Of a DNA stretch of 64,000 bases, positions 1,089 through 40,576 are shown one piece after another. Origin of the DNA: Asaia bogorensis (lineage in GTDB: Bacteria > Bacteroidota > Bacteroidia > Chitinophagales > Chitinophagaceae); the NCBI GenBank assembly GCA_943367855.1, contig CALRKH020000001.1:365-64364 (forward strand), written 5' to 3'. Made by a program: the position numbers and the translations under genes. How positions within the stretch are numbered: the stretch's first letter is position 1; every line of letters starts with the position of its first letter. The notes below the pieces were generated by a model that saw only the letters and a list, made by a program, of their open reading frames with translations, made no database searches and was not told the DNA's origin.

Positions 1089-1372
1089 ATCCATAAGATT
1101 CTGCAGTTCACAATCAATTTTTAGACTTCTAACCAATTATAACAAAGGCGTAACTTTATTTTAACTCGTTAGGAGCACAAGTTAGGTTTTTACAAATTAA
1201 TCACCAAACAAAATTATCCAAATCCCCTGAACATCACAGAGAAATACAGGACTTTTTTATCATTTTATTTTATTTCATAAACTATAAGTTAAAGGAAATT
1301 AACACCTTAACGCAATTCACAATATATACACATTTACATAGGCAGCTAGAGGGCACCTAAAAATAATCTGAC

Positions 1373-1380
1373 TACCTTTG
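1373..1380 (+). promoter_or_regulatory. Bacteroidota sigma70 -7 element (TACCTTTG) upstream of ileS
   Basis: Exact match to the TAnnTTTG consensus, 75 nt before the ileS start. Confidence 0.55.
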
Positions 1381-1455
1381 CCTACTTTTCAAAAAAGCAT
1401 CTTTCTAATAATTATAAGGTGTTGAAACATTTTCAAACGCAGACGCATTAGGATA

Positions 1456-4400
1456 ATGGCAAAATATAAAGAAACAAAGGGGCTTAACATGCCCAATATA
1501 GAGAAAGACATACTTCTAAAATGGAAAAGCGAAAATAGTTTCTCCAAAAGCATTACCAACAGAGATGGTGCAGCCCCATTTGTATTTTATGAAGGTCCGC
1601 CATCGGCCAATGGTATGCCTGGTATACACCACGTAATTTCCCGCACATTAAAAGACCTCGTTTGCCGTTTTAAAACCATGCAGGGGTACCAAGTGCAGCG
1701 AAAAGCTGGCTGGGACACTCATGGACTACCAGTGGAGCTAGGTGTAGAAAAAGAACTAGGTATCACTAAAGAAGATATAGGCGTAAAAATATCTGTAGAA
1801 GATTATAACCGCAAATGCCGGGAAGTGGTGATGCGTTATAAAGATAAATGGGAAGAGATAACTGAGAAGATGGGATATTGGGTGGATATGACCAACCCAT
1901 ATATCACTTTCGATAATAAATATATTGAGTCGCTTTGGTGGGCATTAAAAGAGCTTTATAACAAAGATCTACTATACAAAAGTGTAAGCATACAACCCTA
2001 TTCTCCTGCAGCAGGCACAGGGCTTAGCAGCCATGAGCTGAACCAACCGGGCACATACAAAAACGTAAAAGACACTACCATAGTTGCTATGTTTCACCTA
2101 AGCAACATGAGCGATGGACTTGAATACCCCAACTCACTGCAGCAAACACTACCACAACTGGCATCGGCCGCCTGGGCTCCCTACTCTACCCCAGAAACTG
2201 AATTGCAAGAAAAAACAGTTTCCTTTATGGCATGGACTACCACGCCATGGACGCTACCTTCTAACTGCGGACTTACAGTAGGCCCCAATATAGACTATGT
2301 GCTGGTGCAAACCTTCAATCCTTACACGCACAGCCCTTGCAACATCATACTTGCACAACCACTGATAAGTAAATACCTAAAACCAGAAAACGAGAACGCA
2401 GACTTTACCATATATAATAAGGACGGCAAAAACATACCTTGGAGAATCATACAAACCTTCAAAGGTGCAGCATTAGAAAACCTGCGCTACGAGCAGCTAT
2501 TGCCCTATGATGGCAATACGCGTGCCATAGCTGGCGGCGACCCTTGGCGCGTAATAACTGGCGATTTTGTAACAACTGAAGATGGCACAGGCATAGTACA
2601 CACTGCTCCCGCCTTTGGTGCAGATGACTATAAGGTAGGCAAAAAACACAATATCGGCATACTGGTGATGGTGGATAAAGAAGGCAAATTCATAGACAGC
2701 ACGGGAGAACTGAGTGGCAGATATGTAAAAAACTACAAGAACGAAGATGAATACAAAGATGTAGATGTAGACATAGCTGTGAAGCTAAAACTGGCAGGAC
2801 ACGCATTCAAGGTAGAAAAGTATGAACACACATACCCTCACTGCTGGCGCACAGACAAACCTATAGTGTATTATCCGCTTGATGCTTGGTTTATACGCAC
2901 TACGGCCGTAAAAGACCGCATGATAGAACTAAACAAAACCATCAACTGGAAACCCAAAGCTACGGGAGAAGGTAGATTTGGCAACTGGCTGGAAAACATG
3001 GTAGATTGGAACCTAAGCCGTAGCCGCTATTGGGGCACGCCACTACCTATATGGCGCACCGAAGACGGAACAGAAGTGAAGTGCATAGGTAGCATAGCAG
3101 AGCTAAAAGAAGCTATAGAAAATGCAAATAAAGTGCTCAACATCAACCAGTTTGTAGATGATGACACACTAGACCTGCACAAACCTTTTGTAGACCAAGT
3201 AATATTGACATCTGCCACAGGCAAACCTATGCGTAGAGAACCAGACCTGGTAGATGTATGGTTCGACTCTGGCGCTATGCCTTATGCTCAGCTACACTTC
3301 CCTTTCACAGAGACACCGGCTGGCGTGCTAGGCAGCAATTTTCCTGCCGACTTTATAGCTGAAGGCGTAGACCAAACACGTGGATGGTTTTATACATTGC
3401 ATGCACTAGCCGTAATGCTCTTTGATAGTGTAGCCTACAAAACTGTGGTGAGCAACGGACTGGTGCTAGATAAGAATGGCAACAAAATGAGTAAGCGGCT
3501 GGGCAATGTAGTTGACCCATTCGAAACCATAGAGCAAAACAGTGCAGACGCTACTCGTTGGTATCTCATCACCAATGCTTCGCCATGGGATAGTTTGAAG
3601 TTTGACCTGGAGGGCATAAAAGAAGTGCAAAGAAAATTCTTTGGCACACTGTTTAACACCTATCAGTTCTTTGCACTGTATGCCAATGTAGACGGATTCT
3701 GTTTTGAAGAAGACTACATACCAGTAGCAGACAGACCTGAAATAGACCGATGGATATTATCGTCGCTCAACAGCCTTGTGAAGCAAGTTACAGATTCGCT
3801 GAACGATTATGAGCCAACTGTAGCAGGCCGTGCAATAGAAAACTTTTTGGATGAGCACCTCAGCAACTGGTACGTACGTCTTTGTCGTCGCCGTTTTTGG
3901 AAGGGCGAATATGAGCATGACAAGATATGCGCTTATCAAACACTATATGAGTGCCTAGAAACATTGAGCTTGCTTATAGCACCAGTGGCGCCATTCTTTG
4001 CCGATTGGCTCTTTAGCAACCTCAACGAAACTACTGGTCGCAACAAAGCAGAGAGCGTACACCTGGCCAACTTCCCAGTAGCTGATGACGACCTCATAGA
4101 CATACAACTGGAAGAACGCATGCAGATGGCACAAGATGTTTCTTCTCTGGTATTGTCTATACGCAAGAAGGTGAACATAAAAGTTCGTCAACCTTTGACT
4201 AAGGTATTGATACCTGTGTTTGACAATAACACTATAGCTCAACTAACTAAAGTGGAAGACCTCATAAAAAATGAGGTAAATATAAAAGCAGTAGAATTTT
4301 TGACTGAAACCGCAGGCTTTATCAGCAAAAAAATAAAACCCGATTTTAAAGCTCTGGGCACACGTATGGGCGCAAAAATGAAGGCGGTAGCTGCTGCAAT

Positions 4401-29777: not shown

Positions 29778-30191
29778 TTAGGCAGGTTGCAGCTCTTGGT
29801 GTGCCCTCCGCACCGATGTGCCAATAGGCGTAGGCATACCATCATCATCTATGCGCACAAACGTCATATTTGTGATGCACACCACCACCTCGTCAGCACT
29901 ATACAAGTTATACTTGCGCACCTCTATCTTTATAGTGATGCTCGTTCTGCCCAGGTCCACCACCTCTCCATATATCCTGATGTGGTTACCCATCTTCACT
30001 GGCTTTTTAAAGAGCAGCTCCCCTACCCTCAGTGTCACCATATTGGGTGTGTAGCAATACTCTGTGGCATAGGCAGCTCCTGCCTCATCTATCCATTCCA
30101 TTAGCGTGCCGCCAAACAAGTTGCCATGTATCCCTATGTCGCGGGCCATGCATATTTTCTTACTAATCAGTTTCATTTTCTTTACCCTCAT
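29778..30191 (-). CDS. Acyl-CoA thioesterase (HotDog fold, YciA-like)
   Basis: DIGIHGNLFGGTLMEWIDEAG, F.KPV..G, G.TSI.I and TFVRID..G.P. The start may be ATG 30176. Confidence 0.9.
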   Translation of the reverse strand: MRVKKMKLISKKICMARDIGIHGNLFGGTLMEWIDEAGAAYATEYCYTPNMVTLRVGELLFKKPVKMGNHIRIYGEVVDLGRTSITIKIEVRKYNLYSADEVVVCITNMTFVRIDDDGMPTPIGTSVRRAHQELQPA

Positions 30192-30239: not shown

Positions 30240-30605
30240 TCACGCAGCCACCACCTTTTGGGTATATACAAATCGCCCCATAGCCACCCTGCACTGTTTG
30301 CCATTAGCCCTTCGCAGCGTCACACTTATCTCCAGCTTATCATCCTTGGCCCATAGCACCCTGCTATCCACACGCACCACATCGCCCCTCAGTGCCTTCG
30401 TCATAAAGTTCACCTCATACTTTATAGCCAGCTTCCTATACACTCCCATATCGCCAAAGGCCGCTACCAGGTGCTCATCGCAGCGCGCAGTTATCTCATT
30501 CAGTATGCGGCAGGTAGATATCTGCCCTAGCTCATTCGTATCTTCTTTACCCACCGTAAACACCCCTGTCCGTTTGGCACTCACTTGCCCACTAGTTGTT
30601 GTCAT
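30240..30605 (-). CDS. Divergent HotDog-fold protein (thioesterase-like)
   Basis: V.KEDTNELGQI helix start, VNFMTKALRGDVVRVDSRV and GRFVY give the HotDog topology; it lacks the FGG...D motif. Confidence 0.65.
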   Translation of the reverse strand: MTTTSGQVSAKRTGVFTVGKEDTNELGQISTCRILNEITARCDEHLVAAFGDMGVYRKLAIKYEVNFMTKALRGDVVRVDSRVLWAKDDKLEISVTLRRANGKQCRVAMGRFVYTQKVVAA

Positions 30606-30639
30606 ATAGCTTAATTTTTTTTCGTCGTTATATTGTTTT

Positions 30640-30684
30640 AAAAGAAAAATGCCCCTTGAGTTCTTCGCTACTCAAAGGGCATTT
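30640..30684 (-). terminator. Attenuator terminator 2
   Basis: Minus strand AAATGCCCTTTGAG-tagcgaagaa-CTCAAGGGGCATTT-TTCTTTT. The single DNA mismatch is a U-G wobble only on the minus strand. Confidence 0.88.
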
Positions 30685-30711
30685 GTTTTATGCAGTTCAG
30701 TTTTCTGTTTC

Positions 30712-30822
30712 CTACCTACATCGCGCCTTCGAGCATAGCTTTCTCTTGCAGCATGTGTTACATGCCGCCATATGCTTATGGCTCTTATTCGTTGCAGTTA
30801 CTACCAGTTCTCTGTTGAGCAT
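30712..30822 (-). CDS. Putative Cys-rich leader peptide 2 (36 aa)
   Basis: MLNRELVVTATNKSHKHMAACNTCCKRKLCSKARCR*. It has five Cys codons, and its 3' codons are complementary to the 5' arm of terminator 2. Confidence 0.75.
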   Translation of the reverse strand: MLNRELVVTATNKSHKHMAACNTCCKRKLCSKARCR

Positions 30823-30842
30823 TGTGTTATCGCTATAGTACT

Positions 30843-30884
30843 AAAAAAAAATTACCCCCCGATGGTCTGTTATCGGAGGGTAAT
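30843..30884 (-). terminator. Attenuator terminator 1
   Basis: Minus strand ATTACCCTCCGAT-aacagacc-ATCGGGGGGTAAT-TTTTTTTT; a 13-bp stem with one U-G wobble and a long U-tract. Confidence 0.9.
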
Positions 30885-30911
30885 GAATGTCTTTATGCTT
30901 TGCTTTGGCTA

Positions 30912-30977
30912 CTACATGTCATTACCTGCTCCGTTACGGGCATGTTTACAACACATTCTATGTTTATTTGCTTGCAT
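30912..30977 (-). CDS. Putative Cys-Cys leader peptide 1 (21 aa)
   Basis: MQANKHRMCCKHARNGAGNDM*. Codons 15-22 are complementary to the 5' arm of terminator 1. Confidence 0.75.
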   Translation of the reverse strand: MQANKHRMCCKHARNGAGNDM

Positions 30978-30984
30978 TATGCTG

Positions 30985-31015
30985 CAATACTAGAATATTT
31001 TTCAATTCCCACAAA
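30985..31015 (-). promoter_or_regulatory. Candidate Bacteroidota promoter for the leader-peptide transcript
   Basis: Minus strand TTTG-N19-TAGTATTG (one mismatch to TTTG-N19-21-TAnnTTTG), 7 nt before the ATG of leader 1. Confidence 0.5.
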
Positions 31016-31030
31016 AATATTTTTCAGTTC

Positions 31031-31960
31031 CTACACCCGCTTCACCCACATCAGTCGCGTATCCTGCTCATCACTTATCCTAAACGGCACTCTATGCACC
31101 CCTATCATATACATCATACTCGCCAGCCTGCTCCTCCCCACAAAAACCTTGCCCAGCCTATAACTCAGGCTATAATGACGCACACCCTTTTTAGTATCTA
31201 CCACCAGATAAGTATGAGAATAAGCAGGCATTGTCAAGATAATACTCTGACTATACAACTGTGCATTTAGCACCGGCCATCCCTTGGGCAACTCCTTACC
31301 ACTACGCAGCAAGCGCAGCAACTCATTGGTATCATCATTATAAATCGCCCGCTGCACCCCACTCATCCTTTCGGGCACCACCATACGCTCCAGTTGCAGC
31401 TCACAAGCATTACTATAAAAATCGCCCTGCTCCTTCACCAGTTGCGGCTGCTCAGTCAAGTCCACCTTAGGGTCCACCACACCCTCCTCATCCACATGCA
31501 CAAACAGATACGGATACAAGCTAGACAATACAGGTCTATACTTGGCTTGCAGCTTATACGCTCCCACTGGCACACGCTTCACTATCAGCAGTTGCGTGTA
31601 GGTCTCACCAGGGTTCAGGTGCCAGCTTATCTCATACTTATGCTCACTATCCACTACAGGTATGGTCCACCCATCATGCTCCTTGGCTATTGTCCATTTC
31701 ATCGTTTCCTCGGTCCTGCTCATTAGCACCAGATCATACAAGTGCAACCCTCGTTTGGGATGTCCTGGCACAGCAATACTCACCCTCCTGCCCGATGTAT
31801 TATGTATCAACAACTCCAGCGCCATACTATCTGGCGAGCAGCACAGCCTAGGCCCCATCCTTAGCTCCAGCCTCAAATCACTAGGCACCATATCCGCATA
31901 CACCACACCGCCACCCATCAGCAAAGCCAGCAGCACCACCCATATCTTTTTCATACGCAT
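31031..31960 (-). CDS. Hypothetical exported protein
   Basis: Signal peptide MKKIWVVLLALLMGGGVVYA and a beta-rich N-terminal domain; no recognised family. Confidence 0.7.
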   Translation of the reverse strand: MRMKKIWVVLLALLMGGGVVYADMVPSDLRLELRMGPRLCCSPDSMALELLIHNTSGRRVSIAVPGHPKRGLHLYDLVLMSRTEETMKWTIAKEHDGWTIPVVDSEHKYEISWHLNPGETYTQLLIVKRVPVGAYKLQAKYRPVLSSLYPYLFVHVDEEGVVDPKVDLTEQPQLVKEQGDFYSNACELQLERMVVPERMSGVQRAIYNDDTNELLRLLRSGKELPKGWPVLNAQLYSQSIILTMPAYSHTYLVVDTKKGVRHYSLSYRLGKVFVGRSRLASMMYMIGVHRVPFRISDEQDTRLMWVKRV

Positions 31961-32025
31961 AACCCCACCTTTCCCACCATAGCTTCAATAACTATGCCAC
32001 AATTCACATCCCTACCCTATACACC

Positions 32026-32072
32026 AAAAACAAGCGGAGCAATAGGAAAGATATTCCATTGCTCCGCTTGTT
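32026..32072 (-). terminator. Intrinsic terminator of the hsd operon
   Basis: AACAAGCGGAGCAAT...ATTGCTCCGCTTGTT, a 15-bp perfect stem with a T-tract on the minus strand, just past the hsdM stop. Confidence 0.85.
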
Positions 32073-32098
32073 AATAATGAGCACTTAGACCAGCTACC

Positions 32099-33583
32099 CT
32101 ACTTTCTGTTTAGCGACATTGCAATACCTTCAAAACTCTCTATACAAGCTTTCAATTGCTCCACTATATCCACTGCCAGCACATCGGGGTCGGGCAAATT
32201 GTCTAGGTCGGCGAGTGATTTATCTTTTATCCAGCTTATATCTAGGCTAGTTTTATCTCTGGTTATTATCTCATCATAGCCATACTTTCTCCATCTGCCA
32301 TCAGGATTCTTATCTGCATCATATGTCTCCTTACGTTTGTGTCTGTTATTGGGCTTATAGCAATCTATAAATGCCTGCAAGTCCTCCACTTTTAGCGGGT
32401 TCTTTTTTAGGGTATGGTGCACATTCGTTCGGTAGTCATATATCCACACCTCTTTAGTCCATGGCTCTTTTGCCGCAGGTTTAGCGTCAAAGAAGAGCAC
32501 ATTTGCTTTCACTCCATTAGCATAAAATATACCTGTAGGCAGGCGCAATATGGTATGCAACTCTGTGGTCTCCAGTAGTCGCTTACGCACCAGTTCGCCC
32601 GCACCACCCTCAAACAGCACATTATCTGGCAGCACCACCGCCGCCTGTCCACTAGTTTTCAGCATGGTGCGTATGTGTTGCAGAAAGTTCAACTGCTTGT
32701 TGCTGGTAGTAGCCCAGAAGTCCTGCCGGTTGTAGGTAAGGTCTTCCTTCTCCTGTTCTCCTTCTTCGTTGGTAAAGGTCTGGCTGCTCTTTTTGCCAAA
32801 AGGTGGATTAGCCAGTATATAATCAAACCGCTCTCCGTTATCGGCTATAAGCGCATCGGCAGGTGATATGAAGTTTTCGCTGTCTATATCACCAATGTTG
32901 TGAAGAAACAGGTTCATGAGTGCCATGCGCCTTGTGCCGGCTACAATCTCATTGCCATAAAAGGTTTTGTATTTCAGGAATTGTTTTTGTTCTTTATCCA
33001 GAGTTTGAGCAGCTATGTAATCGAAAGCAGCCAAAAAGAAGCCGCCCGTGCCACAGGCGGGGTCTGCAATGGTGCGCATGGGTTGCGGCTGTATGCAGGC
33101 TACCATTGTTTTTATGAGGGCACGAGGGGTGAAATACTGCCCGGCACCGCTCTTGGTATCTTCGGCATTCTTTTCCAGCAGCCCTTCATATATTTCGCCT
33201 TTTACATCGGCACCCATCACCGTCCACTGCTCTTTGTTGATCATGTCAATCAACTTGTACAACTTAGCCGGGTCTTGTATTTTATTTTGGCTCTTAGTAA
33301 ATATCTGACCGAGTATGCCTTTCTGGCTACCTAGCTCACGCAAGAGCGTTACATAATGCACTTCCAGCTCTGCGCCCTTCAATACCGTAAGGCTATCCCA
33401 GCTATACTGTGCGGGAATTGGTAGCTTGCGGTTGTAGGGTGGCTTGGCATACTCATCTGCCATCTTCAGGAACAGTAAGTAGGTAAGCTGTTCCAGGTAA
33501 TCGCCATAGCTCACGCCATCATCGCGAAGGGTGTTGCAGAAAGACCAGACTTTTGATATGATACTGTTAGTTGTAGTGCTCAT
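32099..33583 (-). CDS. hsdM: Type I R-M methyltransferase subunit (N6-adenine)
   Basis: VWSFCNTLRDDGVSYGDYLEQLTYLLFLKM, GQYFTPR, DPACGTGGF (motif I) and ANPPFG (motif IV). Confidence 0.96.
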   Translation of the reverse strand: MSTTTNSIISKVWSFCNTLRDDGVSYGDYLEQLTYLLFLKMADEYAKPPYNRKLPIPAQYSWDSLTVLKGAELEVHYVTLLRELGSQKGILGQIFTKSQNKIQDPAKLYKLIDMINKEQWTVMGADVKGEIYEGLLEKNAEDTKSGAGQYFTPRALIKTMVACIQPQPMRTIADPACGTGGFFLAAFDYIAAQTLDKEQKQFLKYKTFYGNEIVAGTRRMALMNLFLHNIGDIDSENFISPADALIADNGERFDYILANPPFGKKSSQTFTNEEGEQEKEDLTYNRQDFWATTSNKQLNFLQHIRTMLKTSGQAAVVLPDNVLFEGGAGELVRKRLLETTELHTILRLPTGIFYANGVKANVLFFDAKPAAKEPWTKEVWIYDYRTNVHHTLKKNPLKVEDLQAFIDCYKPNNRHKRKETYDADKNPDGRWRKYGYDEIITRDKTSLDISWIKDKSLADLDNLPDPDVLAVDIVEQLKACIESFEGIAMSLNRK

Positions 33584-33587
33584 TGAG

Positions 33588-34565
33588 TTAAATTAAACCG
33601 AGTTCTTTTGAAATATCGGTTGTAAGCTTTGATAATACCCTTTTATGATAGTTTCTTTCAGTAGTGTAATTTCCAAGGACGAAGCGATTTACATCTTCTT
33701 CATTCTTAAACAATGTGCCCTGATATTTTAAATACAAGTCATGTAGATATGTTGGAGAATAAACTATTGATTTTTGAATGATTTCATCAACATAGTCTTT
33801 GTGCATATTGTATAAATCTTTCAATCTAAATGTTGAAATATTTCTAAATGCAGATTTGATTTTATCATTGTCCCATTTGGAAAGGCTACCCTTTTTGAAT
33901 TTTATTCGATACGCAGAATGACTACCATTGATGAAATTTATGTTCTTTGGTTTTATTGTAAAAACTAAATCGTCTGAAAACCCTTCCAAATAAGGATGAA
34001 TGTTTTTATCCAAGCTAAAGTCCTCTTCGTGTTTTAAAGTTTCATTGCATATATAGCAACTTGGAATAAGGTTGAAAAAACTGAGGGCTAAATATGGATA
34101 TTTAGATTGATGAAAAAAATGGTCGTACTGGAATCTTGTTCCTTTCTTCAAATCTGTTCCTAAAGTAAAAGTGTATGACCTGTTGCAATAAGCACAGACA
34201 TTTACATTTATTTTTTTCGCCAGTTGGTATGCCTTCCAATTATCATAGCTGGAGTAATAGAAAATTTGCTTGAATTCCTCTTTCCTTGTTTTGGTAATCA
34301 ATTTGCCATATTTCTTAGTAAATCTTTTTATGAAATTATCTAGCTCTTTGGGCTTAGCTATCAAGATAGAAAACCCACTGGCATCTTTGACTACATTGTT
34401 AAGCAGGTATTCATACAATGAATAAATTCTTGGATTGCCTTTGTATTTGTTTTTCCATTTGTTAATCCTTTTTATAACGGTCTGTTTTTTTCCGTCTTTT
34501 TTCGTAAGATTATCATAATGAAAATTCAATACCTCTTTTTCATTTTCTAAATGTATCTGTATCAT
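33588..34565 (-). CDS. HNH-type endonuclease, Septu PtuB-like
   Basis: VCAYCN...DHFFHQSKYPYLALSFFNLIPSCYICN: CxxC, DH, N and CxxC Zn-bound HNH pattern. It is coupled to the upstream ATPase (3-nt gap). Confidence 0.8.
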   Translation of the reverse strand: MIQIHLENEKEVLNFHYDNLTKKDGKKQTVIKRINKWKNKYKGNPRIYSLYEYLLNNVVKDASGFSILIAKPKELDNFIKRFTKKYGKLITKTRKEEFKQIFYYSSYDNWKAYQLAKKINVNVCAYCNRSYTFTLGTDLKKGTRFQYDHFFHQSKYPYLALSFFNLIPSCYICNETLKHEEDFSLDKNIHPYLEGFSDDLVFTIKPKNINFINGSHSAYRIKFKKGSLSKWDNDKIKSAFRNISTFRLKDLYNMHKDYVDEIIQKSIVYSPTYLHDLYLKYQGTLFKNEEDVNRFVLGNYTTERNYHKRVLSKLTTDISKELGLI

Positions 34566-34568
34566 AGC

Positions 34569-36512
34569 CTAAAGACTTAATTTGCTTTCAATCTTATCTA
34601 ATCGTTCATGAATTTCTAAATTAAATCGGTCATTATACAATTGCATCAGTTTATGTTTTAATATTGGTTCGCCGATTTGATGAATTATATTTCTTATTTC
34701 TTCTCGCCTTTCTTTTGAAGGCGTAGCTCCTTTTGTTAGTTCCGTTATTATTTCATTTATTTTCAGTGAAGCAAAATCACCTATCAAACCATCTTTAATA
34801 AAAAAGGAATCTGACAATAGTGTGTAAATATTCGCCGCAAATGTTTCCCTCTGGTCGTTTAAGCTATCTTTTACAATTGATTTGCTTTCTTTTGATCCAT
34901 ATATTCCTGTATACAACACATTTCTCTCTAAAAATACCGTGTTGTCGTTTGGTAGATCAGATGCTGGAATCGGAGAATTTGTTGTAAGAACTATTTGAAT
35001 ATTTCTCTTTACACCGTTTCTGGTTTTAGCAAACAATCTTGGTAAAAAGTTTAATAGTATGTTGACAAATCTTTTTTGCCAAGAAGGATGTAAATAAACA
35101 TCACCTTCGTCAATCAGAATAATAACATTCTTATTTAGTTCGTTTATTTGTTCTTCATTTGATAATGAATGGAAACGAGAATAAATATTGAGTAGTGCAT
35201 TTTCGCCACTACTAAGCCCACGCCATGCAAAATTTAAGTAGGGCTTAAGTCTATAAGAATTTCTGTATGAATTGTATAATTTTTCAAAATCTGGACCGGT
35301 TTTATCATTAATGGCCCACGCGAGGCTTACTTGATTTTCTCCTGACGTAGAATTTGTTGAAGAAATTAAATCAGGTAGACTATTGATGAAGTCAAGGGCT
35401 CCTTCTATCCAGATATAATGAGAGCCATCAAGTTTAACTGAAAATAAATCAGATTGTACTTTCAGATGTTCTAGTACTGCCAAAGCAATCGATCTAATGC
35501 CTTTATTTTTTTTGATCAATTCTGTATCTATTTCAAATTTGCCAGAAGACGTTGTACTTCGGTATGAAGTTGCTAATTCCAACAGGAGATTCATTAGACA
35601 ACTGCTCGTGAACAAATCAATAAAATAGTCTTTCTTTTTTGACTTACTTAATAACGCTTCAAGCTCAATAGATAAAATTCTAAAATCATTTAGGAATCCA
35701 TATTCATCAATTATTTTCTTATATATTTCGGGATATCCTGAATCGAAATTAATTGATCTCTTTATACTCAAATATATATTGCGAGGCAGTTCAAACGGAA
35801 TATACTCCTTGTGTTTGTATCTATTAATGAAAGCAATTTGTCTTTCTTTCTCTTCGAATTGGTGTATGTCAATAGGGTTGCTAACTTCCCTATTGATTCT
35901 GCCATTTTCGACATTTTTAACAAAATCATTTCTTACTAGAAAGTTTGTGGAAATGTCACATGTGCCTTTTACTTGTATGTCATTTTCGAAAGAGGCATCG
36001 TAGATATTCGAAAAATAGATAAAGTCTGTATCTCTGAAAGCATCTATTTTTGGCAGAATTTGATTTTCATACTCCTTTCCATTGCTCAGTTTTAATTTTT
36101 CAATCTTAGTGGATAGTTTTTCAATCGATATAGAAAGCCCCGAGAGATTATGCTTTTTGATTGCGATATCCGACATATGGTACACCATAATATTCCCGGC
36201 ATTTGCCAAAACTAATATCAAGTGATGTTGTAAACCGCCTTGACCTTCTGCGAGTGATTGGCTAATTGTCTTCAATAGCGACGTTTTGCCAGTTCCGTTT
36301 TCGCCAATAACCGAAGTAACATTCAGGACATCTGCGAATTTATCCGATGGTTTATTTATTGAAAAGAAGTTTTCAACGTAAAACGGATTTTTTGAGGCAA
36401 TAAACTCACGGTCTTTCTCATTATAGTGAAACCTAAATTTTCCGCCGAAATTTATATCTTGGTTACCGAAAGGTAAAATGTCTGATTTAAAGTACAAATA
36501 TAATATCTCCAT
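34569..36512 (-). CDS. ABC-type (AAA_15/AAA_21-like) ATPase, Septu PtuA-like
   Basis: Walker A GENGTGKT, signature LSSGE, Walker B/D-loop ILIDEGDVYLHPSWQ, switch region LTTNSP..SDLP, and C-terminal TFAANI..LL...FF....IG.FA..KI. Confidence 0.85.
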   Translation of the reverse strand: MEILYLYFKSDILPFGNQDINFGGKFRFHYNEKDREFIASKNPFYVENFFSINKPSDKFADVLNVTSVIGENGTGKTSLLKTISQSLAEGQGGLQHHLILVLANAGNIMVYHMSDIAIKKHNLSGLSISIEKLSTKIEKLKLSNGKEYENQILPKIDAFRDTDFIYFSNIYDASFENDIQVKGTCDISTNFLVRNDFVKNVENGRINREVSNPIDIHQFEEKERQIAFINRYKHKEYIPFELPRNIYLSIKRSINFDSGYPEIYKKIIDEYGFLNDFRILSIELEALLSKSKKKDYFIDLFTSSCLMNLLLELATSYRSTTSSGKFEIDTELIKKNKGIRSIALAVLEHLKVQSDLFSVKLDGSHYIWIEGALDFINSLPDLISSTNSTSGENQVSLAWAINDKTGPDFEKLYNSYRNSYRLKPYLNFAWRGLSSGENALLNIYSRFHSLSNEEQINELNKNVIILIDEGDVYLHPSWQKRFVNILLNFLPRLFAKTRNGVKRNIQIVLTTNSPIPASDLPNDNTVFLERNVLYTGIYGSKESKSIVKDSLNDQRETFAANIYTLLSDSFFIKDGLIGDFASLKINEIITELTKGATPSKERREEIRNIIHQIGEPILKHKLMQLYNDRFNLEIHERLDKIESKLSL

Positions 36513-36530
36513 TTGAGAGTGTTTGTTGTG

Positions 36531-37799
36531 TTAATAAGTATTTAGTTTTCCTTCAAATGCTTGCTTCAATATACTTTGCCTTAGCGCCTCTGCTTCTTTT
36601 AGCCCATTGGTTATTGTTTCTTCTATGTTATCGCAAACGCTTAAGCGGCTTTCGATTTCCTGAACGACTTTCTCTTGTTCGTCAATTGAGCAGATTGGCA
36701 AGGGATATTCTTTGAGTTTTGTTCCGTTTATGTTAGACTGATTAACACCAAAACTTCTAACGGTGTTCCCATGCGCCTTGGCGGTTTGAGAATTCAAAAA
36801 GTAAGTCAGATAATCTGCGTTTATGAGGCTGTCTATTCTATTTATCCGAATCAAATACCCTGCAAATATTGCTGGTCTTTCACCTTTGTATATAGCAGTC
36901 TTGCCTACGAGTTCGGCACTATTAGTCCTATTGAAAAGCACATCGTTTTTTTTGAGACGATACTTTTTAATTTCAGCTTCGTCATCAGTGTATACCAAAT
37001 CACTCCAGTCAAATCTGCCGTTTTGAATATTACCCATTCTTAATACAGGAATACTGCCTGCTTCTTTTGATTTAGCAGCAGACCCATATTCAACACCCGT
37101 ACAAACCTCCCCAATAGTCCCAATCCTCCATCCTTCCGGCAACTCCCCATCTTTCACGTTTGCGTTAGTGAGCCTGCCCTCAAAAGCCCATTTTAATACC
37201 GCCTGCCGATACACTTTTAGCTGCTGCTGTAGCTTCTTAAGCCCCTCTACTCCGTTATCCAGTTTACTGAAAAGTTCTTCGAGTTTTGAGACGATCGTTA
37301 CTTGTTCTTTTATTGGAGCTAACGTTATGTCAACATTTTTAAGTTTGGCTTGGTTTATAGACGACTGATTAACCGATTTCTGTGCAATGGATATAAAAAC
37401 GCCTCTCGCACGTAGATACTTTAATTGATAATTCAGAAAATCAGCATTAACCGACGTATTCGGCCTTAATAATAATAGATTGATGCCGTGGATAATCGGA
37501 GGAAATTTGGCTTGTTTATAAAGAGCCGTTTTGCCCAAGTGTATATCCGAATTGATGTGACTGAATAAAATGTCATTATCAATCAACCTATACTTCTCAA
37601 TAAAATCTTCGCTATTTTCTTCGATATATTTTACCCTGCTAAAATCAAATTGACCGTTCCATATTGTTTCAATTCTGGATATAGGCAACCCTATTTTATC
37701 ATCGTATTGTTTTGCTGAACTTCCATTTGTCATTTTATCGCAAACATCACCTAGCTTAACAATGTTCCAACTACTAAAGAGGCTTTTATTATCTTTCAT
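36531..37799 (-). CDS. hsdS: Type I R-M specificity subunit
   Basis: Two TRDs separated by conserved repeats (PIKEQVTIVSKLEELFSKLD...YRQAVLKWAFEGRL and PICSIDEQEKVVQEIESRLS...LRQSILKQAFEGKL). TAATG overlap with hsdR. Confidence 0.95.
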   Translation of the reverse strand: MKDNKSLFSSWNIVKLGDVCDKMTNGSSAKQYDDKIGLPISRIETIWNGQFDFSRVKYIEENSEDFIEKYRLIDNDILFSHINSDIHLGKTALYKQAKFPPIIHGINLLLLRPNTSVNADFLNYQLKYLRARGVFISIAQKSVNQSSINQAKLKNVDITLAPIKEQVTIVSKLEELFSKLDNGVEGLKKLQQQLKVYRQAVLKWAFEGRLTNANVKDGELPEGWRIGTIGEVCTGVEYGSAAKSKEAGSIPVLRMGNIQNGRFDWSDLVYTDDEAEIKKYRLKKNDVLFNRTNSAELVGKTAIYKGERPAIFAGYLIRINRIDSLINADYLTYFLNSQTAKAHGNTVRSFGVNQSNINGTKLKEYPLPICSIDEQEKVVQEIESRLSVCDNIEETITNGLKEAEALRQSILKQAFEGKLNTY

Positions 37800-40576
37800 T
37801 ATGCAGCTAATTCTTCGTTTAGTTCATTAATAATATCTTCCATTCCTTCGCCAAAGATTTGCCACATTTTGCCCCTGCCACCTACGGCATCAAACGGAGT
37901 GTAATCTAAGTCTTCGGCATCGATATGTATGCTGTTGGCTACATGGTCTTTTATCATGCGCAGCCACTGCATTTGTTCTTCTGTAAACTTTAGCGGGCCG
38001 GCTTGCTTTTTAAATAGCCATTGTTTAAAGTTGTTATCTACAGTTTTGTCGTAGCTGGCAAGGGTAGCATCTATGCCGCATACATGCCTTATGAGCGATA
38101 CCAGTGCTATCAGTTCATTCTTGGGGGTGCCGCTGGTGGTGGCGGTCAGTTCGTAAGCTCGCCATATATGCATGGGTGCCAGCAGTGGCTTGTCGGCTTT
38201 TAGCAGTTCCAGCACTTCTTTTATCATCTGGTAAGTAAGCTCTCGCCTGCGGTAGGGCTGGTTGTAATATATTTGCAGTGCTGTTATCTCGTCCTTATGC
38301 GCTTCCATCCACTGCCCGAAGTCCTGCACCAGTAGCGCTGCTTGCTCCTTATTGTCTTTGTCCCAGCCAGCACTGAGTATGCTATCTTGGTTAATGTGGT
38401 CTATTATTTGGCTGTGGCTTTTGCGCACCTGTTCTATATATACATTGAGCTCCCCAGTAAATGTGCTTGCTGCCTGCTCTATGATAGCATTGTGCCTTGC
38501 CTCATATGCTGCTTGTTTATCCGCAGGGCTGGCATTAGGCATTGCAATATCTGTTTGTTGCCGCATTTGCTCCATGGTGTCTGGGTCATAGGCATTCAGC
38601 AGTTCACCCACTACCTGTGGTAGTGTTTTGCCATTAGCCTTCTCGGCAAAGGTTTGCTGCTCTTTAGGTGTCAGTTGCTTATTCAGCCGTGCCAGTCTGT
38701 TTGCCAGTGTTGTGTATAGGTCTTCATCTCTGGCACCCACTGCCACTGCACCTAGCAGGTCTTTTAGTGCCACCCCAGGCTTTTTCTCTAGCGGTCGGCT
38801 ATCCGTTTTCAAGCTCTTTGTCACCCCCACAGCATCTACTATCACAAAATGGTCTTTGGTATATCGGGCCGTTTTAGACACCTTGTGCAGGTCATCTATA
38901 CTCAGCGTGCGTGTACCTCGCCCTTTCATTTGTTCAAAGTAATTACGGCTCTTCACATCCCGCATAAACAGCAGGCATTCCAGTGGCTTCACATCAGTTC
39001 CTGTTGCTATCATATCCACCGTCACCGCTATTCGGGGGCTGTAGTCATTCCTAAACTGTGCCAGCACCGATTTGGGGTCTTCCTCTGCCCTATAGGTTAT
39101 CTTCTTACAAAACCTATTCTCCTCCGCAAATTCCTCCCGCACTATATTAATGATATCATCTGCATGACTGTCAGTCTTGGCAAATATGAGTGTCTTAGGC
39201 ACTTCAAACGTACCGTCATCATTATACCTGTCGGGAAACATGCCGGGCAGGTTGTCTTTAAAGCTGCGTATTACGGTGCGTATCTGGCTTGGGTTTACTA
39301 TATCATCATCCAGCCGTTTGGCACTGTAGGCCACATCCTCATCTAGCTGCTCCCAAAACTTTCGTCTCGTCAGCCGTTCTCGCTTATCTATATACTCACC
39401 AAATTTTATCTCGGCTCCATTCTTTGTTATTTCTGTCTCTATAGTAAACACATGATAGGGCACTAGCACCCCATCTATCACCGCCTTTTCAAACCCATAA
39501 TCGCTTACTACGTTTTGATTAAAAAAACCAAATGTGCGATTGTCTGGTGTGGCTGTTAGTCCTGTCAAAAAACTATCAAAGTATTCTAGCACCTGCTTCC
39601 ACAGATTATAGATGCTGCGGTGACACTCATCTATCACCACAAAGTCAAAAAAAGCTATTGGCAACTTAGGGTTATAGGCTATCGGTGGCACCTCTCTAGG
39701 CTGCCATTGCTCATTAGGGTTCCTTTCTTCTGCACTATCATCCAGCTCGTCACCTTTTAGCACCGAGTAGAGGCGTTGTATCGTACTTATATACACTTGG
39801 TTATCCGTAGGTATAAAGCTACTCTTCAACCTATGTACACCATACAGCTCAGTAAACTTGCGGTTATCATCATTGGGCAGATAAGCATTAAACTCCTGTT
39901 CTGCTTGCTCTCCTAGATTTTTGGTATCTACTAAAAACAATATGCGTTTAGCTCCCGCATATTTCAGCAGGCGATATATAAATGTAATCGCCGTAAATGT
40001 CTTTCCCGACCCTGTTGCCATTTGTATCAATGCACGAGGTCTATTTTCTTTAAACGATTGTTCCAGCTGGTTTATAGCCAACACCTGGCAGTCCCTCAAT
40101 CCTGTAGTAGGTAGTTCAGGCATACTTAGCAAACTAGTCCTTAAAGAGGCTCCTTTTCTCAGCCATTCCTTAAAAACCTCTGGTGTGTGAAAACTAAACA
40201 CCTGCCTTGCTCTTGGTTTAGGGTCTCTGTAATCCGTAAAACGGGTCACATCTCCAGTACTTTCATATACAAATGGCAGAGGGTCGTTATTTAAGTATTT
40301 TAGTTTGCTAGTAGCATACTCTAAGCTTTGATCCTCTACAGTAGTCAGCTGTATTCCCTTATTTTTCTCCTTCGCCTCTATAATGCCTACTGGCTTTTTA
40401 TCCACAAAAAGCACATAATCAGCAGGCCCTGTCGATGTTTGGTATTCTCGCACAGCCACACCTATACCAGCCGCCAAATTTATGTTGGCCTTTCCCTGCA
40501 CCAGCCAGCCACAGGCAGCCAACTGCCTGTCTATCTCATCTCTGGCTGTTTGTTCGGGATTTTGGTTGCTCATCAT
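37799..40576 (-). CDS. hsdR: Type I R-M restriction subunit (EcoEI-like)
   Basis: Nuclease motif ADYVL...IIEAK, helicase motifs MATGSGKT, IDECHRS, LTATP, MIATGTD and QMKGRGTR, and an EcoEI_R_C-like C-terminus. Confidence 0.96.
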   Translation of the reverse strand: MMSNQNPEQTARDEIDRQLAACGWLVQGKANINLAAGIGVAVREYQTSTGPADYVLFVDKKPVGIIEAKEKNKGIQLTTVEDQSLEYATSKLKYLNNDPLPFVYESTGDVTRFTDYRDPKPRARQVFSFHTPEVFKEWLRKGASLRTSLLSMPELPTTGLRDCQVLAINQLEQSFKENRPRALIQMATGSGKTFTAITFIYRLLKYAGAKRILFLVDTKNLGEQAEQEFNAYLPNDDNRKFTELYGVHRLKSSFIPTDNQVYISTIQRLYSVLKGDELDDSAEERNPNEQWQPREVPPIAYNPKLPIAFFDFVVIDECHRSIYNLWKQVLEYFDSFLTGLTATPDNRTFGFFNQNVVSDYGFEKAVIDGVLVPYHVFTIETEITKNGAEIKFGEYIDKRERLTRRKFWEQLDEDVAYSAKRLDDDIVNPSQIRTVIRSFKDNLPGMFPDRYNDDGTFEVPKTLIFAKTDSHADDIINIVREEFAEENRFCKKITYRAEEDPKSVLAQFRNDYSPRIAVTVDMIATGTDVKPLECLLFMRDVKSRNYFEQMKGRGTRTLSIDDLHKVSKTARYTKDHFVIVDAVGVTKSLKTDSRPLEKKPGVALKDLLGAVAVGARDEDLYTTLANRLARLNKQLTPKEQQTFAEKANGKTLPQVVGELLNAYDPDTMEQMRQQTDIAMPNASPADKQAAYEARHNAIIEQAASTFTGELNVYIEQVRKSHSQIIDHINQDSILSAGWDKDNKEQAALLVQDFGQWMEAHKDEITALQIYYNQPYRRRELTYQMIKEVLELLKADKPLLAPMHIWRAYELTATTSGTPKNELIALVSLIRHVCGIDATLASYDKTVDNNFKQWLFKKQAGPLKFTEEQMQWLRMIKDHVANSIHIDAEDLDYTPFDAVGGRGKMWQIFGEGMEDIINELNEELAA

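What the first reader, a model, noticed from the sequence alone, without database searches (positions are those of the whole stretch)
30640..31015. Tandem twin Cys-Cys leader-peptide attenuators with identical geometry (top candidate novel system)
Seen (minus strand, not in the ORF track). Module 1 is MQANKHRMCCKHARNGAGNDM* (30977-30912) plus terminator 30884-30843. Module 2 is MLNRELVVTATNKSHKHMAACNTCCKRKLCSKARCR* (30822-30712) plus terminator 30684-30640. In BOTH modules the Cys-Cys codon pair is followed 14 nt later by a segment complementary to the terminator 5' arm, the TAG comes 11 codons after the Cys pair, and the hairpin starts 27 nt after the stop. From the Cys pair onward the modules are offset by exactly 200 nt, although their sequences differ. 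Antiterminator 1: CGGAG-ca-GGUAAUGA-c-AUGU (30933-30914) pairs with 30890-30874, 17 bp with two bulges. Antiterminator 2: CUCGAAGG-c-GC (30733-30723) pairs with 30680-30671, 10 bp. Established: in classical attenuation a ribosome stalled on control codons leaves the antiterminator free, while full translation masks it; polycysteine sORF attenuators are known in mycobacteria. Inference: a two-stage, AND-like cysteinyl-tRNA sensor giving tighter, steeper control. I know of no described tandem Cys attenuator in Bacteroidota.
Basis: partly seen in the sequence, partly recalled or inferred. Interest (0 to 1): 0.92.

Follow-up and report, generated by a model that had tools for sequence, protein, structure and literature searches.

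The report
Tandem cysteine-codon leader-peptide attenuators
Two tiny cysteine-codon mini-genes, each overlapping a stop/go RNA switch, sit one after the other in front of two thioesterase genes of a Flavipsychrobacter (Bacteroidota), and most likely let stalled ribosomes report cysteine shortage twice in series; the mechanism is the classical one, but the double arrangement and the genes it controls have not been described.

Summary
Both sORFs, both Cys-Cys pairs, both terminators, both antiterminator pairings and the 14-nt, 11-codon, 27-nt and 200-nt spacings are present.

The same tandem, module 1 then module 2, occurs in at least 6 genera of Chitinophagaceae. The start codon lies 8 codons before the Cys pair. 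Cys codons vary synonymously (TGT/TGC). In each module a copy of the terminator's 3' arm begins 12-24 nt after the last Cys codon. The module 2 antiterminator, terminator 5' arm and 3' arm covary three ways.

Leaders of the same build carry WWW before trpE, HHHH before hisG, K-rich runs before asd and dapA, and CCCC before cysE-cysK. Codon identity therefore tracks the pathway.

The exact 200-nt offset is a coincidence of this genome. In relatives the two modules keep only approximately similar spacing.

Cys-uORF attenuators are already known or predicted: mycobacterial polycysteine sORFs and the Rhodobacterales cysS uORFC-8-2 motif. This is therefore a new variant, not a new kind. New here are two same-signal attenuators in series in Bacteroidota, and a target set of hotdog thioesterases, plus 1-Cys peroxiredoxin, DUF2721 and Nramp in relatives. 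There is no transcript or ribosome evidence.

The parts
30985..31015 (-). Bacteroidota-type promoter. The -33 TTTG is at 31015-31012, followed by 19 nt, then the -7 box TAGTATTG at 30992-30985. The sORF1 ATG lies 7 nt downstream, so the mRNA is near-leaderless.
   Evidence: Read. The same TTTG-N19-TA..ATTG motif followed by an ATG or GTG is seen in relatives. The consensus itself is from my own knowledge of Bacteroidetes promoters. No TSS data.
30912..30977 (-). sORF1 (21 codons), the leader peptide of module 1: MQANKHRMCCKHARNGAGNDM*.
   Evidence: The start codon (ATG or GTG) lies 8 codons before the Cys pair in nearly all homologues.
30948..30953 (-). Control codons of module 1 (TGT TGT).
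   Evidence: Homologues carry TGT TGT, TGT TGC, TGC TGT, TGC TGC TGT or TGC TGC TGC.
30914..30956 (-). Module 1 region 1:2 hairpin (anti-antiterminator). 30956-30948, which includes the Cys codons, pairs with 30922-30914. The inner pairs are 30945-30937 with 30933-30924.
   Evidence: RNAalifold consensus and MFE of the free RNA.
30874..30933 (-). Module 1 antiterminator: 5' strand 30933-30914 pairs with 30890-30874. It overlaps the terminator 5' arm. 17 bp.
   Evidence: Complementarity read. Duplex -13.4 kcal/mol, p = 0.01 against shuffles. It forms when a ribosome is masked at the Cys codons and cannot form when a ribosome is masked at the stop codon.
30842..30884 (-). Intrinsic terminator 1: 13-bp stem, 8-nt loop, T9.
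   Evidence: -19.8 kcal/mol.
30712..30822 (-). sORF2 (36 codons), the leader peptide of module 2: MLNRELVVTATNKSHKHMAACNTCCKRKLCSKARCR*.
   Evidence: Homologues end ...CC(C)x3-4 C/x SKARC*.
30748..30768 (-). Hairpin GCGGCAUGU-aac-ACAUGCUGC. Its 3' arm holds the module 2 control codons TGC TGC (30753-30748). Possible pause or synchronising hairpin.
   Evidence: Different sequences form the same kind of hairpin in relatives. The function is inferred.
30671..30735 (-). Module 2 antiterminator: 5' strand 30735-30722 (core 30733-30723) pairs with 30680-30671 of the terminator 5' arm.
   Evidence: Duplex -16.0 kcal/mol, p = 0.000. Covariation. Fold simulation.
30637..30684 (-). Intrinsic terminator 2: 15-bp stem, 8-nt loop, T5CT4.
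   Evidence: -20.4 kcal/mol.
30240..30605 (-). First regulated gene: a 121-aa remote hotdog-fold (4HBT-like) protein, here called 'hotdog-1'.
   Evidence: Pfam 4HBT match just below the cut-off. Relatives pass it. Weak profile hits to ACOT thioesterases.
29778..30191 (-). Second regulated gene: a 137-aa YciA-like acyl-CoA thioesterase.
   Evidence: Pfam 4HBT 4.9e-17. NCBIfam YciA 1.2e-14, below the cut-off. PDB acyl-CoA thioesterases at about 1e-16.

Best explanation
The 425-nt leader of a two-gene thioesterase operon holds two ribosome-mediated transcription attenuators in series. Each is read through only when a ribosome stalls at cysteine codons.

Transcription starts a few bases before sORF1. 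In module 1 the Cys codons lie in region 1, which pairs with region 2.
- If Cys-tRNA is plentiful, the ribosome runs to the stop codon, which sits at the 3' end of region 2 here and inside it in relatives. It masks region 2, and the terminator (regions 3:4) forms.
- If Cys-tRNA is scarce, the ribosome stalls on UGU UGU. Region 2 begins just beyond its footprint and pairs with the terminator's 5' arm. RNA polymerase then reads on into module 2.
- In module 2 a second leader peptide repeats the test with its own antiterminator and terminator.

Only transcripts that pass both tests reach the hotdog-1 and YciA-like thioesterase genes. The output is the product of two read-through probabilities: low basal expression and a steeper response.

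Shown: the sequence elements, their geometry, and their conservation and covariation. Inferred: translation of the sORFs, stalling, termination, and cysteine as the signal.
For: 1. All elements are present and complementary.

2. Masking simulations behave as the model requires. Free RNA gives the 1:2 hairpin plus terminator. A ribosome at the Cys codons allows the antiterminator. A ribosome at the stop codon prevents it.

3. The tandem is conserved in 6 genera of Chitinophagaceae: Flavipsychrobacter (the genome of the window plus 8 others), G175, G308/G389, G215, G155 and G448. Module 1 occurs alone before the YciA-like gene in 4 more genera.

4. The signature is at codon level. An ATG or GTG start lies 8 codons before the Cys pair. 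Cys codons change synonymously. After codon 13 the window and its relatives differ in reading frame while the nucleotides GGAGCAGGTAA are kept, so the peptide tail is free and the RNA is constrained.

5. The antiterminator strand starts 15-24 nt (module 1) or 12-16 nt (module 2) after the first base of the last Cys codon. Its sequence follows each genome's own terminator arm: CGAAGGG, CCGGGGGC, AGGGGC, CUCAGGG and others.

6. The module 2 antiterminator is 90% paired, against 13-57% for slid controls. Four pairs have changes on both sides, and the covariation score exceeds all 500 shuffles. Changes are three-way, G/C/G to A/U/A and A/U/A to G/C/G.

7. The same leader build carries WWW before trpE, CCCC before cysE-cysK, and K-rich runs before asd and dapA. 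It also carries HHHH before hisG, YFWYYP before prephenate dehydratase, CCCC before a 1-Cys peroxiredoxin plus a PALP enzyme, and CC before a Cys/Met PLP enzyme.

8. There is no -7 box between terminator 1 and sORF2 in any genome read.
Against: - There are no transcript ends, ribosome footprints or physiology. The only RNA-derived contigs found cover downstream genes.
- The regulated genes here are not cysteine biosynthesis genes, so the physiological logic is inferred.
- Some homologues have a single Cys in the first cluster (L037, L050, L028).
- One homologue (L049) has no stop codon before terminator 1.
- The 1:2 element of module 2 is not uniform among genomes.
- sORF2 keeps more peptide-level conservation (HH-CCC-KP-x-CSKARC) than a pure sensor needs.
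- The element is patchy even within the genus. R1 hit 12 of 40 genomes at E <= 0.001. R2 hit 9 of 40 at E <= 1e-5, of which 8 are true module 2 copies.
Confidence: 0.78

Rival explanations
1. The sORFs are genes for functional Cys/His-rich micropeptides, for example metal- or redox-active ones. Each has its own terminator, and the downstream genes are controlled otherwise. Alternatively the peptides are dual-function.
For: sORF2 keeps HH-CC(C)-KP-x-C-SKARC across genera, including synonymous Pro codons. Many module 1 peptides have a second Cys cluster, CxC. Relatives link the locus to Nramp, VIT1 and peroxiredoxin genes.
Against: - The SKARC codons are the antiterminator strand and covary with both terminator arms.
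- The N-terminal halves are unconserved.
- The tail of the module 1 peptide changes frame between close relatives while the RNA sequence is kept.
- Module 2 has no promoter of its own.
- Identical architecture is used with WWW, HHHH and CCCC before the cognate biosynthetic operons.
Confidence: 0.07
2. The ribosome-stalling attenuators are real, but the physiological signal is not cysteine supply as such. It could be thiol oxidation or oxidative stress lowering Cys-tRNA charging, or a nascent-peptide or metal effect on elongation.
For: The target sets include 1-Cys peroxiredoxin, DUF4395 and Nramp in relatives and a peroxiredoxin in another family. They are not only Cys biosynthesis genes.
Against: Sibling Cys leaders precede cysE-cysK and a Cys/Met PLP enzyme, which fits plain cysteine sensing. 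No peptide motif beyond the Cys residues is shared by all module 1 leaders.
Confidence: 0.1
3. The modules are translation-independent structured RNAs: small RNAs, or a riboswitch-like element ending in terminators. On this reading UGUUGU is conserved only as part of a stem.
For: In module 1 the Cys codons lie in a conserved stem. Both modules end in strong terminators, so they would yield discrete short RNAs.
Against: - Cys is kept through TGT/TGC changes and through shifts of one codon.
- Start codons stay at a fixed distance and the frames stay open in all lineages.
- No Rfam family matches.
- The structures are no more complex than alternative hairpins.
Confidence: 0.05

Closest known systems
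Classical leader-peptide transcription attenuators (E. coli/Salmonella trpL, hisL, pheL, thrL, leuL)
   Same: A short ORF with a run of control codons. Region 1:2, 2:3 and 3:4 alternative pairings. An intrinsic terminator. The stop codon is placed so that a terminating ribosome masks region 2.
   Different: The control codons are Cys. The mRNA is near-leaderless, behind a Bacteroidota -33/-7 promoter, with no Shine-Dalgarno sequence. Two complete attenuators for the same amino acid stand in series. The targets are not a biosynthetic operon for that amino acid.
uORFC-8-2 motif upstream of cysS in Rhodobacterales (Brewer et al. 2021, PMC8632094; read)
   Same: A uORF with two tandem Cys codons lying in the first stem, followed by a U-tailed terminator stem. 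The proposed mechanism is Cys-tRNA-dependent read-through.
   Different: Different phylum and no detectable sequence relation (no Rfam hit). It is a single element with Cys at positions 14-15, and its target is cysS.
Polycysteine leaderless sORF attenuators of mycobacteria (Canestrari et al. 2020, 10.1101/834739) and the Cys leader peptides predicted in Actinobacteria (Seliverstov et al. 2005, PMC1262725)
   Same: Leaderless or near-leaderless sORFs whose Cys codons sense cysteine through ribosome stalling. Several loci share the signal, forming a 'ribulon'.
   Different: [quoted passage not shown] No terminators are present there. Here each sORF is coupled to an intrinsic terminator and antiterminator.
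Tandem attenuators of Salmonella mgtCBR (Lee and Groisman 2012, PMC3641672) and tandem riboswitches or T-boxes (my own knowledge)
   Same: Two cis-acting sensors in one leader, acting in series on elongation into the coding region.
   Different: The two mgtCBR ORFs sense different signals. Tandem riboswitches and T-boxes bind ligands or tRNA directly. Here both stages are leader peptides reading the same amino acid.

Membership tests
Classical leader-peptide transcription attenuator | Short translatable ORF in the 5' leader, ending before or at the terminator | tested here: met
   sORF1 30977-30912 and sORF2 30822-30712. The frames are open in all lineages except L049 sORF1.
Classical leader-peptide transcription attenuator | Run of codons for the sensed amino acid | tested here: met
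   CC in both sORFs of the window. Homologues carry CC, CCC, CxC or CCCC, with synonymous codon changes. Three homologues have a single Cys.
Classical leader-peptide transcription attenuator | Intrinsic terminator between the leader ORF and the structural genes | tested here: met
   Two hairpins followed by T-runs, at -19.8 and -20.4 kcal/mol.
Classical leader-peptide transcription attenuator | Antiterminator that excludes the terminator, is free when the ribosome stalls at the control codons, and is masked when the ribosome reaches the stop codon | tested here: met
   Position and significance. Covariation. Masking simulation.
Classical leader-peptide transcription attenuator | Region 1:2 pairing that holds the antiterminator strand in the absence of a stalled ribosome | tested here: inconclusive
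   Clear for module 1. For module 2 the candidates differ among genomes.
Classical leader-peptide transcription attenuator | Read-through rises when the cognate aminoacyl-tRNA is scarce | not testable with these tools
   The RNA data found cover downstream genes only.
Classical leader-peptide transcription attenuator | Controlled genes belong to the pathway of the sensed amino acid | tested here: not met
   The targets here are hotdog-1 and a YciA-like thioesterase. Sibling Cys leaders do precede cysE-cysK, a PALP enzyme and a Cys/Met PLP enzyme.
Mycobacterial polycysteine leaderless sORF attenuators | [quoted passage not shown] | tested here: not met
   Each sORF is followed by an intrinsic terminator 27 nt after its stop codon. 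The start region of the first gene is A-rich and unpaired in the predicted folds.
uORFC-8-2 (Rhodobacterales cysS) | Match to the motif and location upstream of cysS | tested here: not met
   No Rfam match in the region at E <= 10. I did not confirm that this motif is in Rfam 15. The downstream genes are thioesterases.

The most novel reading that the evidence does not exclude
The tandem marks a previously unrecognised Cys-tRNA-read regulon ('ribulon') across Bacteroidia. Besides cysE-cysK and MetY-like genes, it would include a YciA-like thioesterase, a new hotdog protein, DUF2721, 1-Cys peroxiredoxin, DUF4395 and Nramp. These proteins would then act in the cell's thiol and CoA economy under cysteine or thiol stress. 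The double attenuator would give a switch-like, very low-leak response. The conserved HH-CCC-...-CSKARC peptide of module 2 may also be functional in its own right.
Probability: 0.3. Interest if true: 0.7.

Novelty: new variant of a known kind. Interest (0 to 1): 0.55.

Why it matters
If the model holds, this is a clean natural case of two identical-signal leader-peptide attenuators wired in series. That allows a direct test of whether serial attenuation sharpens the response, as proposed for tandem riboswitches.

It would also extend ribosome-read cysteine sensing to Bacteroidota. The leaders of this phylum are near-leaderless and SD-less, and they are absent from Rfam.

The practical gain is functional annotation. 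Cys-codon leaders would tie proteins of unknown role (a new hotdog family, YciA-like thioesterases, DUF2721, 1-Cys peroxiredoxin, DUF4395) to cysteine or thiol limitation. That gives a concrete condition under which to assay them.

Tried and rejected
- **Rfam:** searched at E <= 10 on the region and at E <= 0.01 on 11 related loci. No family matched, not even for the Trp leaders.
- **RNA evidence:** one metatranscriptome holds only two 151-nt contigs inside hotdog-1. Soil metatranscriptomes cover only the DUF2721 gene of a relative. Neither is informative.
- **Genome-wide pattern scan of the window's genome for further leaders:** only the known module 1 was recovered, plus false positives.
- **A retracted side result:** tblastn suggested that cysE and cysK are absent. 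For cysK this was an artefact. The CysK/CBS-family gene is cut at a contig end, and all 40 other genomes of the genus have one. cysE was not rechecked.
- **Weak R2 and R1 hits:** these were plain terminators or 3' ends of genes (for example G036).
- **A uniform 1:2 helix for module 2:** not found.
- **Column-based covariation for module 1 across genera:** not attempted, because the antiterminator strand shifts position. Per-sequence shuffle tests were used instead.
- **Sigma-70-type promoter match:** set aside as not applicable to Bacteroidota.

Full report
**What is there**

- sORF1 (30977-30912) has TGT TGT at 30953-30948 and is followed by a 13-bp hairpin plus T9 (30884-30842).
- sORF2 (30822-30712) has TGC TGC at 30753-30748 and is followed by a 15-bp hairpin plus a T-run (30684-30637).
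- Both proposed antiterminator pairings are complementary as stated: 17 bp with two bulges, and 10 bp with one.
- The whole leader folds far better than shuffles (z = -6.75).
- No Rfam family matches, even at E <= 10.

A Bacteroidota-type promoter ends 7 nt before the sORF1 ATG: TTTG at 31015-31012, N19, then TAGTATTG at 30992-30985. sORF1 is therefore near-leaderless. The motif consensus is from my own knowledge, and there are no TSS data.

**Organism and context**

Relatives fetched by DNA and protein similarity carry the name Flavipsychrobacter (Chitinophagaceae). In several of them the operon behind the two modules is longer: hotdog-1, 1-Cys peroxiredoxin, DUF4395, YciA-like thioesterase, Nramp. 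A VIT1-family gene lies divergently upstream. In the window a type I restriction-modification and ATPase block lies upstream instead.

The second gene is a YciA-like acyl-CoA thioesterase. The first is a remote hotdog-fold protein.

**Conservation of the tandem**

Covariance models of module 1 (R1) and module 2 (R2) were searched over 401 Chitinophagaceae genomes, 401 genomes of the class, and 40 genomes of the genus.

Every true module 2 copy found has a module 1 copy directly upstream. This holds in six genera: Flavipsychrobacter, and the genera of G175, G308/G389, G215, G155 and G448.

Module 1 alone precedes the YciA-like gene in four further genera and in three Flavipsychrobacter species.

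No -7 promoter motif lies between terminator 1 and sORF2 in any genome I read. Module 2 is therefore reached only by read-through of module 1.

**Evidence that the sORFs are read as codons**

- In module 1 the start codon, ATG or GTG, lies 8 codons before the Cys pair in nearly all homologues.
- The Cys codons appear as TGT TGT, TGT TGC, TGC TGT, TGC TGC TGT, TGC TGC TGC, or as CxC.
- After codon 13 the window and its close relatives differ in reading frame, while the nucleotides GGAGCAGGTAA are kept. This is the pattern expected when the 5' part matters as codons and the 3' part matters as RNA.
- In module 2 the frame is open in all lineages. The peptide ends ...CC(C)-x3-4-(C)SKARC*.

**Evidence for the switch**

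In 19 of 20 module 1 sequences, the best duplex between the post-Cys segment and the terminator 5' arm starts 15-24 nt after the first base of the last Cys codon, just beyond a stalled ribosome. In 14 of 20 it beats 300 shuffles at p <= 0.013. The strand differs from genome to genome and follows that genome's own terminator arm.

In module 2 the strand starts at +12 to +16. The stop codon begins 4-8 nt after the strand ends, and the terminator begins 24-31 nt after the stop.

On the model-based alignment, the module 2 antiterminator is 90.2% paired, against 13-57% for slid controls. Four pairs have changes on both sides, and the covariation score exceeds all 500 shuffles. The changes are three-way, involving the antiterminator strand, the 5' arm and the 3' arm: G/C/G to A/U/A in three sequences and A/U/A to G/C/G in two. 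A diverged module 2 in G011 uses CUCAGGG with GCCCCUGAG.

Constraint folding of the window sequence gives these states:
- free RNA: 1:2 hairpin plus terminator;
- ribosome at the Cys codons: antiterminator forms;
- ribosome at the stop codon: antiterminator cannot form.

In module 1, region 1 (30956-30948) contains the Cys codons and pairs with the 3' part of region 2. For module 2, a conserved hairpin has the Cys codons in its 3' arm, but no uniform 1:2 element emerged.

**Why cysteine is the likely signal**

R1 also recovered leaders of the same build in which codon identity matches the operon:

| Leader codons or peptide | Downstream gene(s) |
|---|---|
| WWW | trpE |
| K-rich | asd, dapA |
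| MHAPVNCCCCIATP* | cysE-cysK |
| HHHH | hisG |
| YFWYYP | prephenate dehydratase |
| MKNTFTFTCCCCSTRR* | 1-Cys peroxiredoxin plus a PALP enzyme |
| CxC leader | DUF2721 |
| CC leader | Cys/Met-metabolism PLP enzyme |

The last five rows come from other families of the class. The Cys-codon leaders before the thioesterases therefore belong to a wider set of cysteine-linked leaders. Why thioesterases should respond to cysteine is not shown. Release of CoA when cysteine limits CoA synthesis, or a link to thiol stress, are only ideas.

The exact identity of geometry and the 200-nt offset are particular to this genome. In the closest relatives both modules have 9 codons from Cys to stop, but the antiterminator offsets (+19 and +13) and the stop-to-terminator gaps (24 and 29 nt) differ. 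The similarity is best explained by the ribosome footprint, not by duplication.

**Exceptions**

- Three homologues have one Cys in the first cluster.
- L049 sORF1 lacks a stop codon before the terminator.
- The element is patchy within the genus.

**Comparison with what is known**

- Leader-peptide attenuation is classical.
- Cys leader peptides without terminators were predicted in Actinobacteria (PMC1262725). In mycobacteria they were shown to act translationally (10.1101/834739).
- A Cys-Cys uORF with a terminator was predicted upstream of cysS in Rhodobacterales (PMC8632094).
- Tandem attenuators with different signals are known for mgtCBR (PMC3641672).
- Leader-peptide attenuation in Flavobacteria has been noted only in general terms (PMC9723704).
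- My searches found no description of Cys leaders in Bacteroidota, of two same-signal leader-peptide attenuators in series, or of this target set. The library lacks most subscription journals, so this is not proof of absence.
- Earlier unchecked notes of this scan report Met/Cys leaders, some of them two-stage, in Clostridia. This lowers the surprise somewhat.

**Verdict**

It is a new variant of a known kind. Confidence in the mechanism is about 0.78, and it rests entirely on sequence and comparative evidence.

Noticed in passing
L018, L019, L022-L024, L027, L033, L034, L036, L038, L041, L076-L080, L082, L083, L085 (match at about 1501-1640 of each locus): A whole repertoire of near-leaderless leader-peptide attenuators across Bacteroidia. 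Each starts right after a TTTG/ATTG -7 box. It includes WWW before trpE, HHHH before hisG, YFWYYP before prephenate dehydratase, K-rich runs before asd and dapA, and CCCC or CC before cysE-cysK, peroxiredoxin plus a PALP enzyme, and a MetY-like enzyme. No Rfam family matched the loci that were scanned, which included Trp, Lys and Cys leaders.
   Followed up: partly
window 30712-30722 and 30790-30800; L009-L013 module 2: The sequence GAUGUUGA(C) around the sORF2 stop codon is almost invariant across genera. In most Flavipsychrobacter it is complementary to (G)UCAACAU near the sORF2 start. This may be a long-range helix enclosing the Cys codons and the antiterminator strand. In the window itself the pairing is poor.
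   Followed up: partly
L006 about 1340-1475 (reverse strand); L017, L103 and L105 downstream of module 2: Some relatives have an extra basic ORF of about 43 aa between terminator 2 and hotdog-1. The window has none.
   Followed up: no
L047, L050, L079: A DUF2721 membrane protein is the first gene behind Cys leaders in three genera, one of them in another family. This links a domain of unknown function to the same control.
   Followed up: partly
window 31031-40576: A type I restriction-modification (HsdM) and AAA-ATPase block, plus a 309-aa ORF with no family, lie directly upstream. In relatives a divergent VIT1-family gene occupies that side. This suggests an island inserted next to the leader's promoter.
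   Followed up: no
L014 (CALQJX020000016.1): A record titled as a 'Bordetella parapertussis' MAG carries the Flavipsychrobacter-type tandem and the hotdog-1 gene. The organism label looks wrong.
   Followed up: no
genome contig C149:82-321: The CysK/CBS-family gene of this genome is cut at a contig end. Other species of the genus have 460-490-aa open frames of this family (CBS-like length).
   Followed up: partly
L049 about 1350-1500: In G215 sORF1 has no stop codon before terminator 1. It ends in ATGA, overlapping the sORF2 start codon. This is either an exception to the usual design or an assembly error.
   Followed up: no
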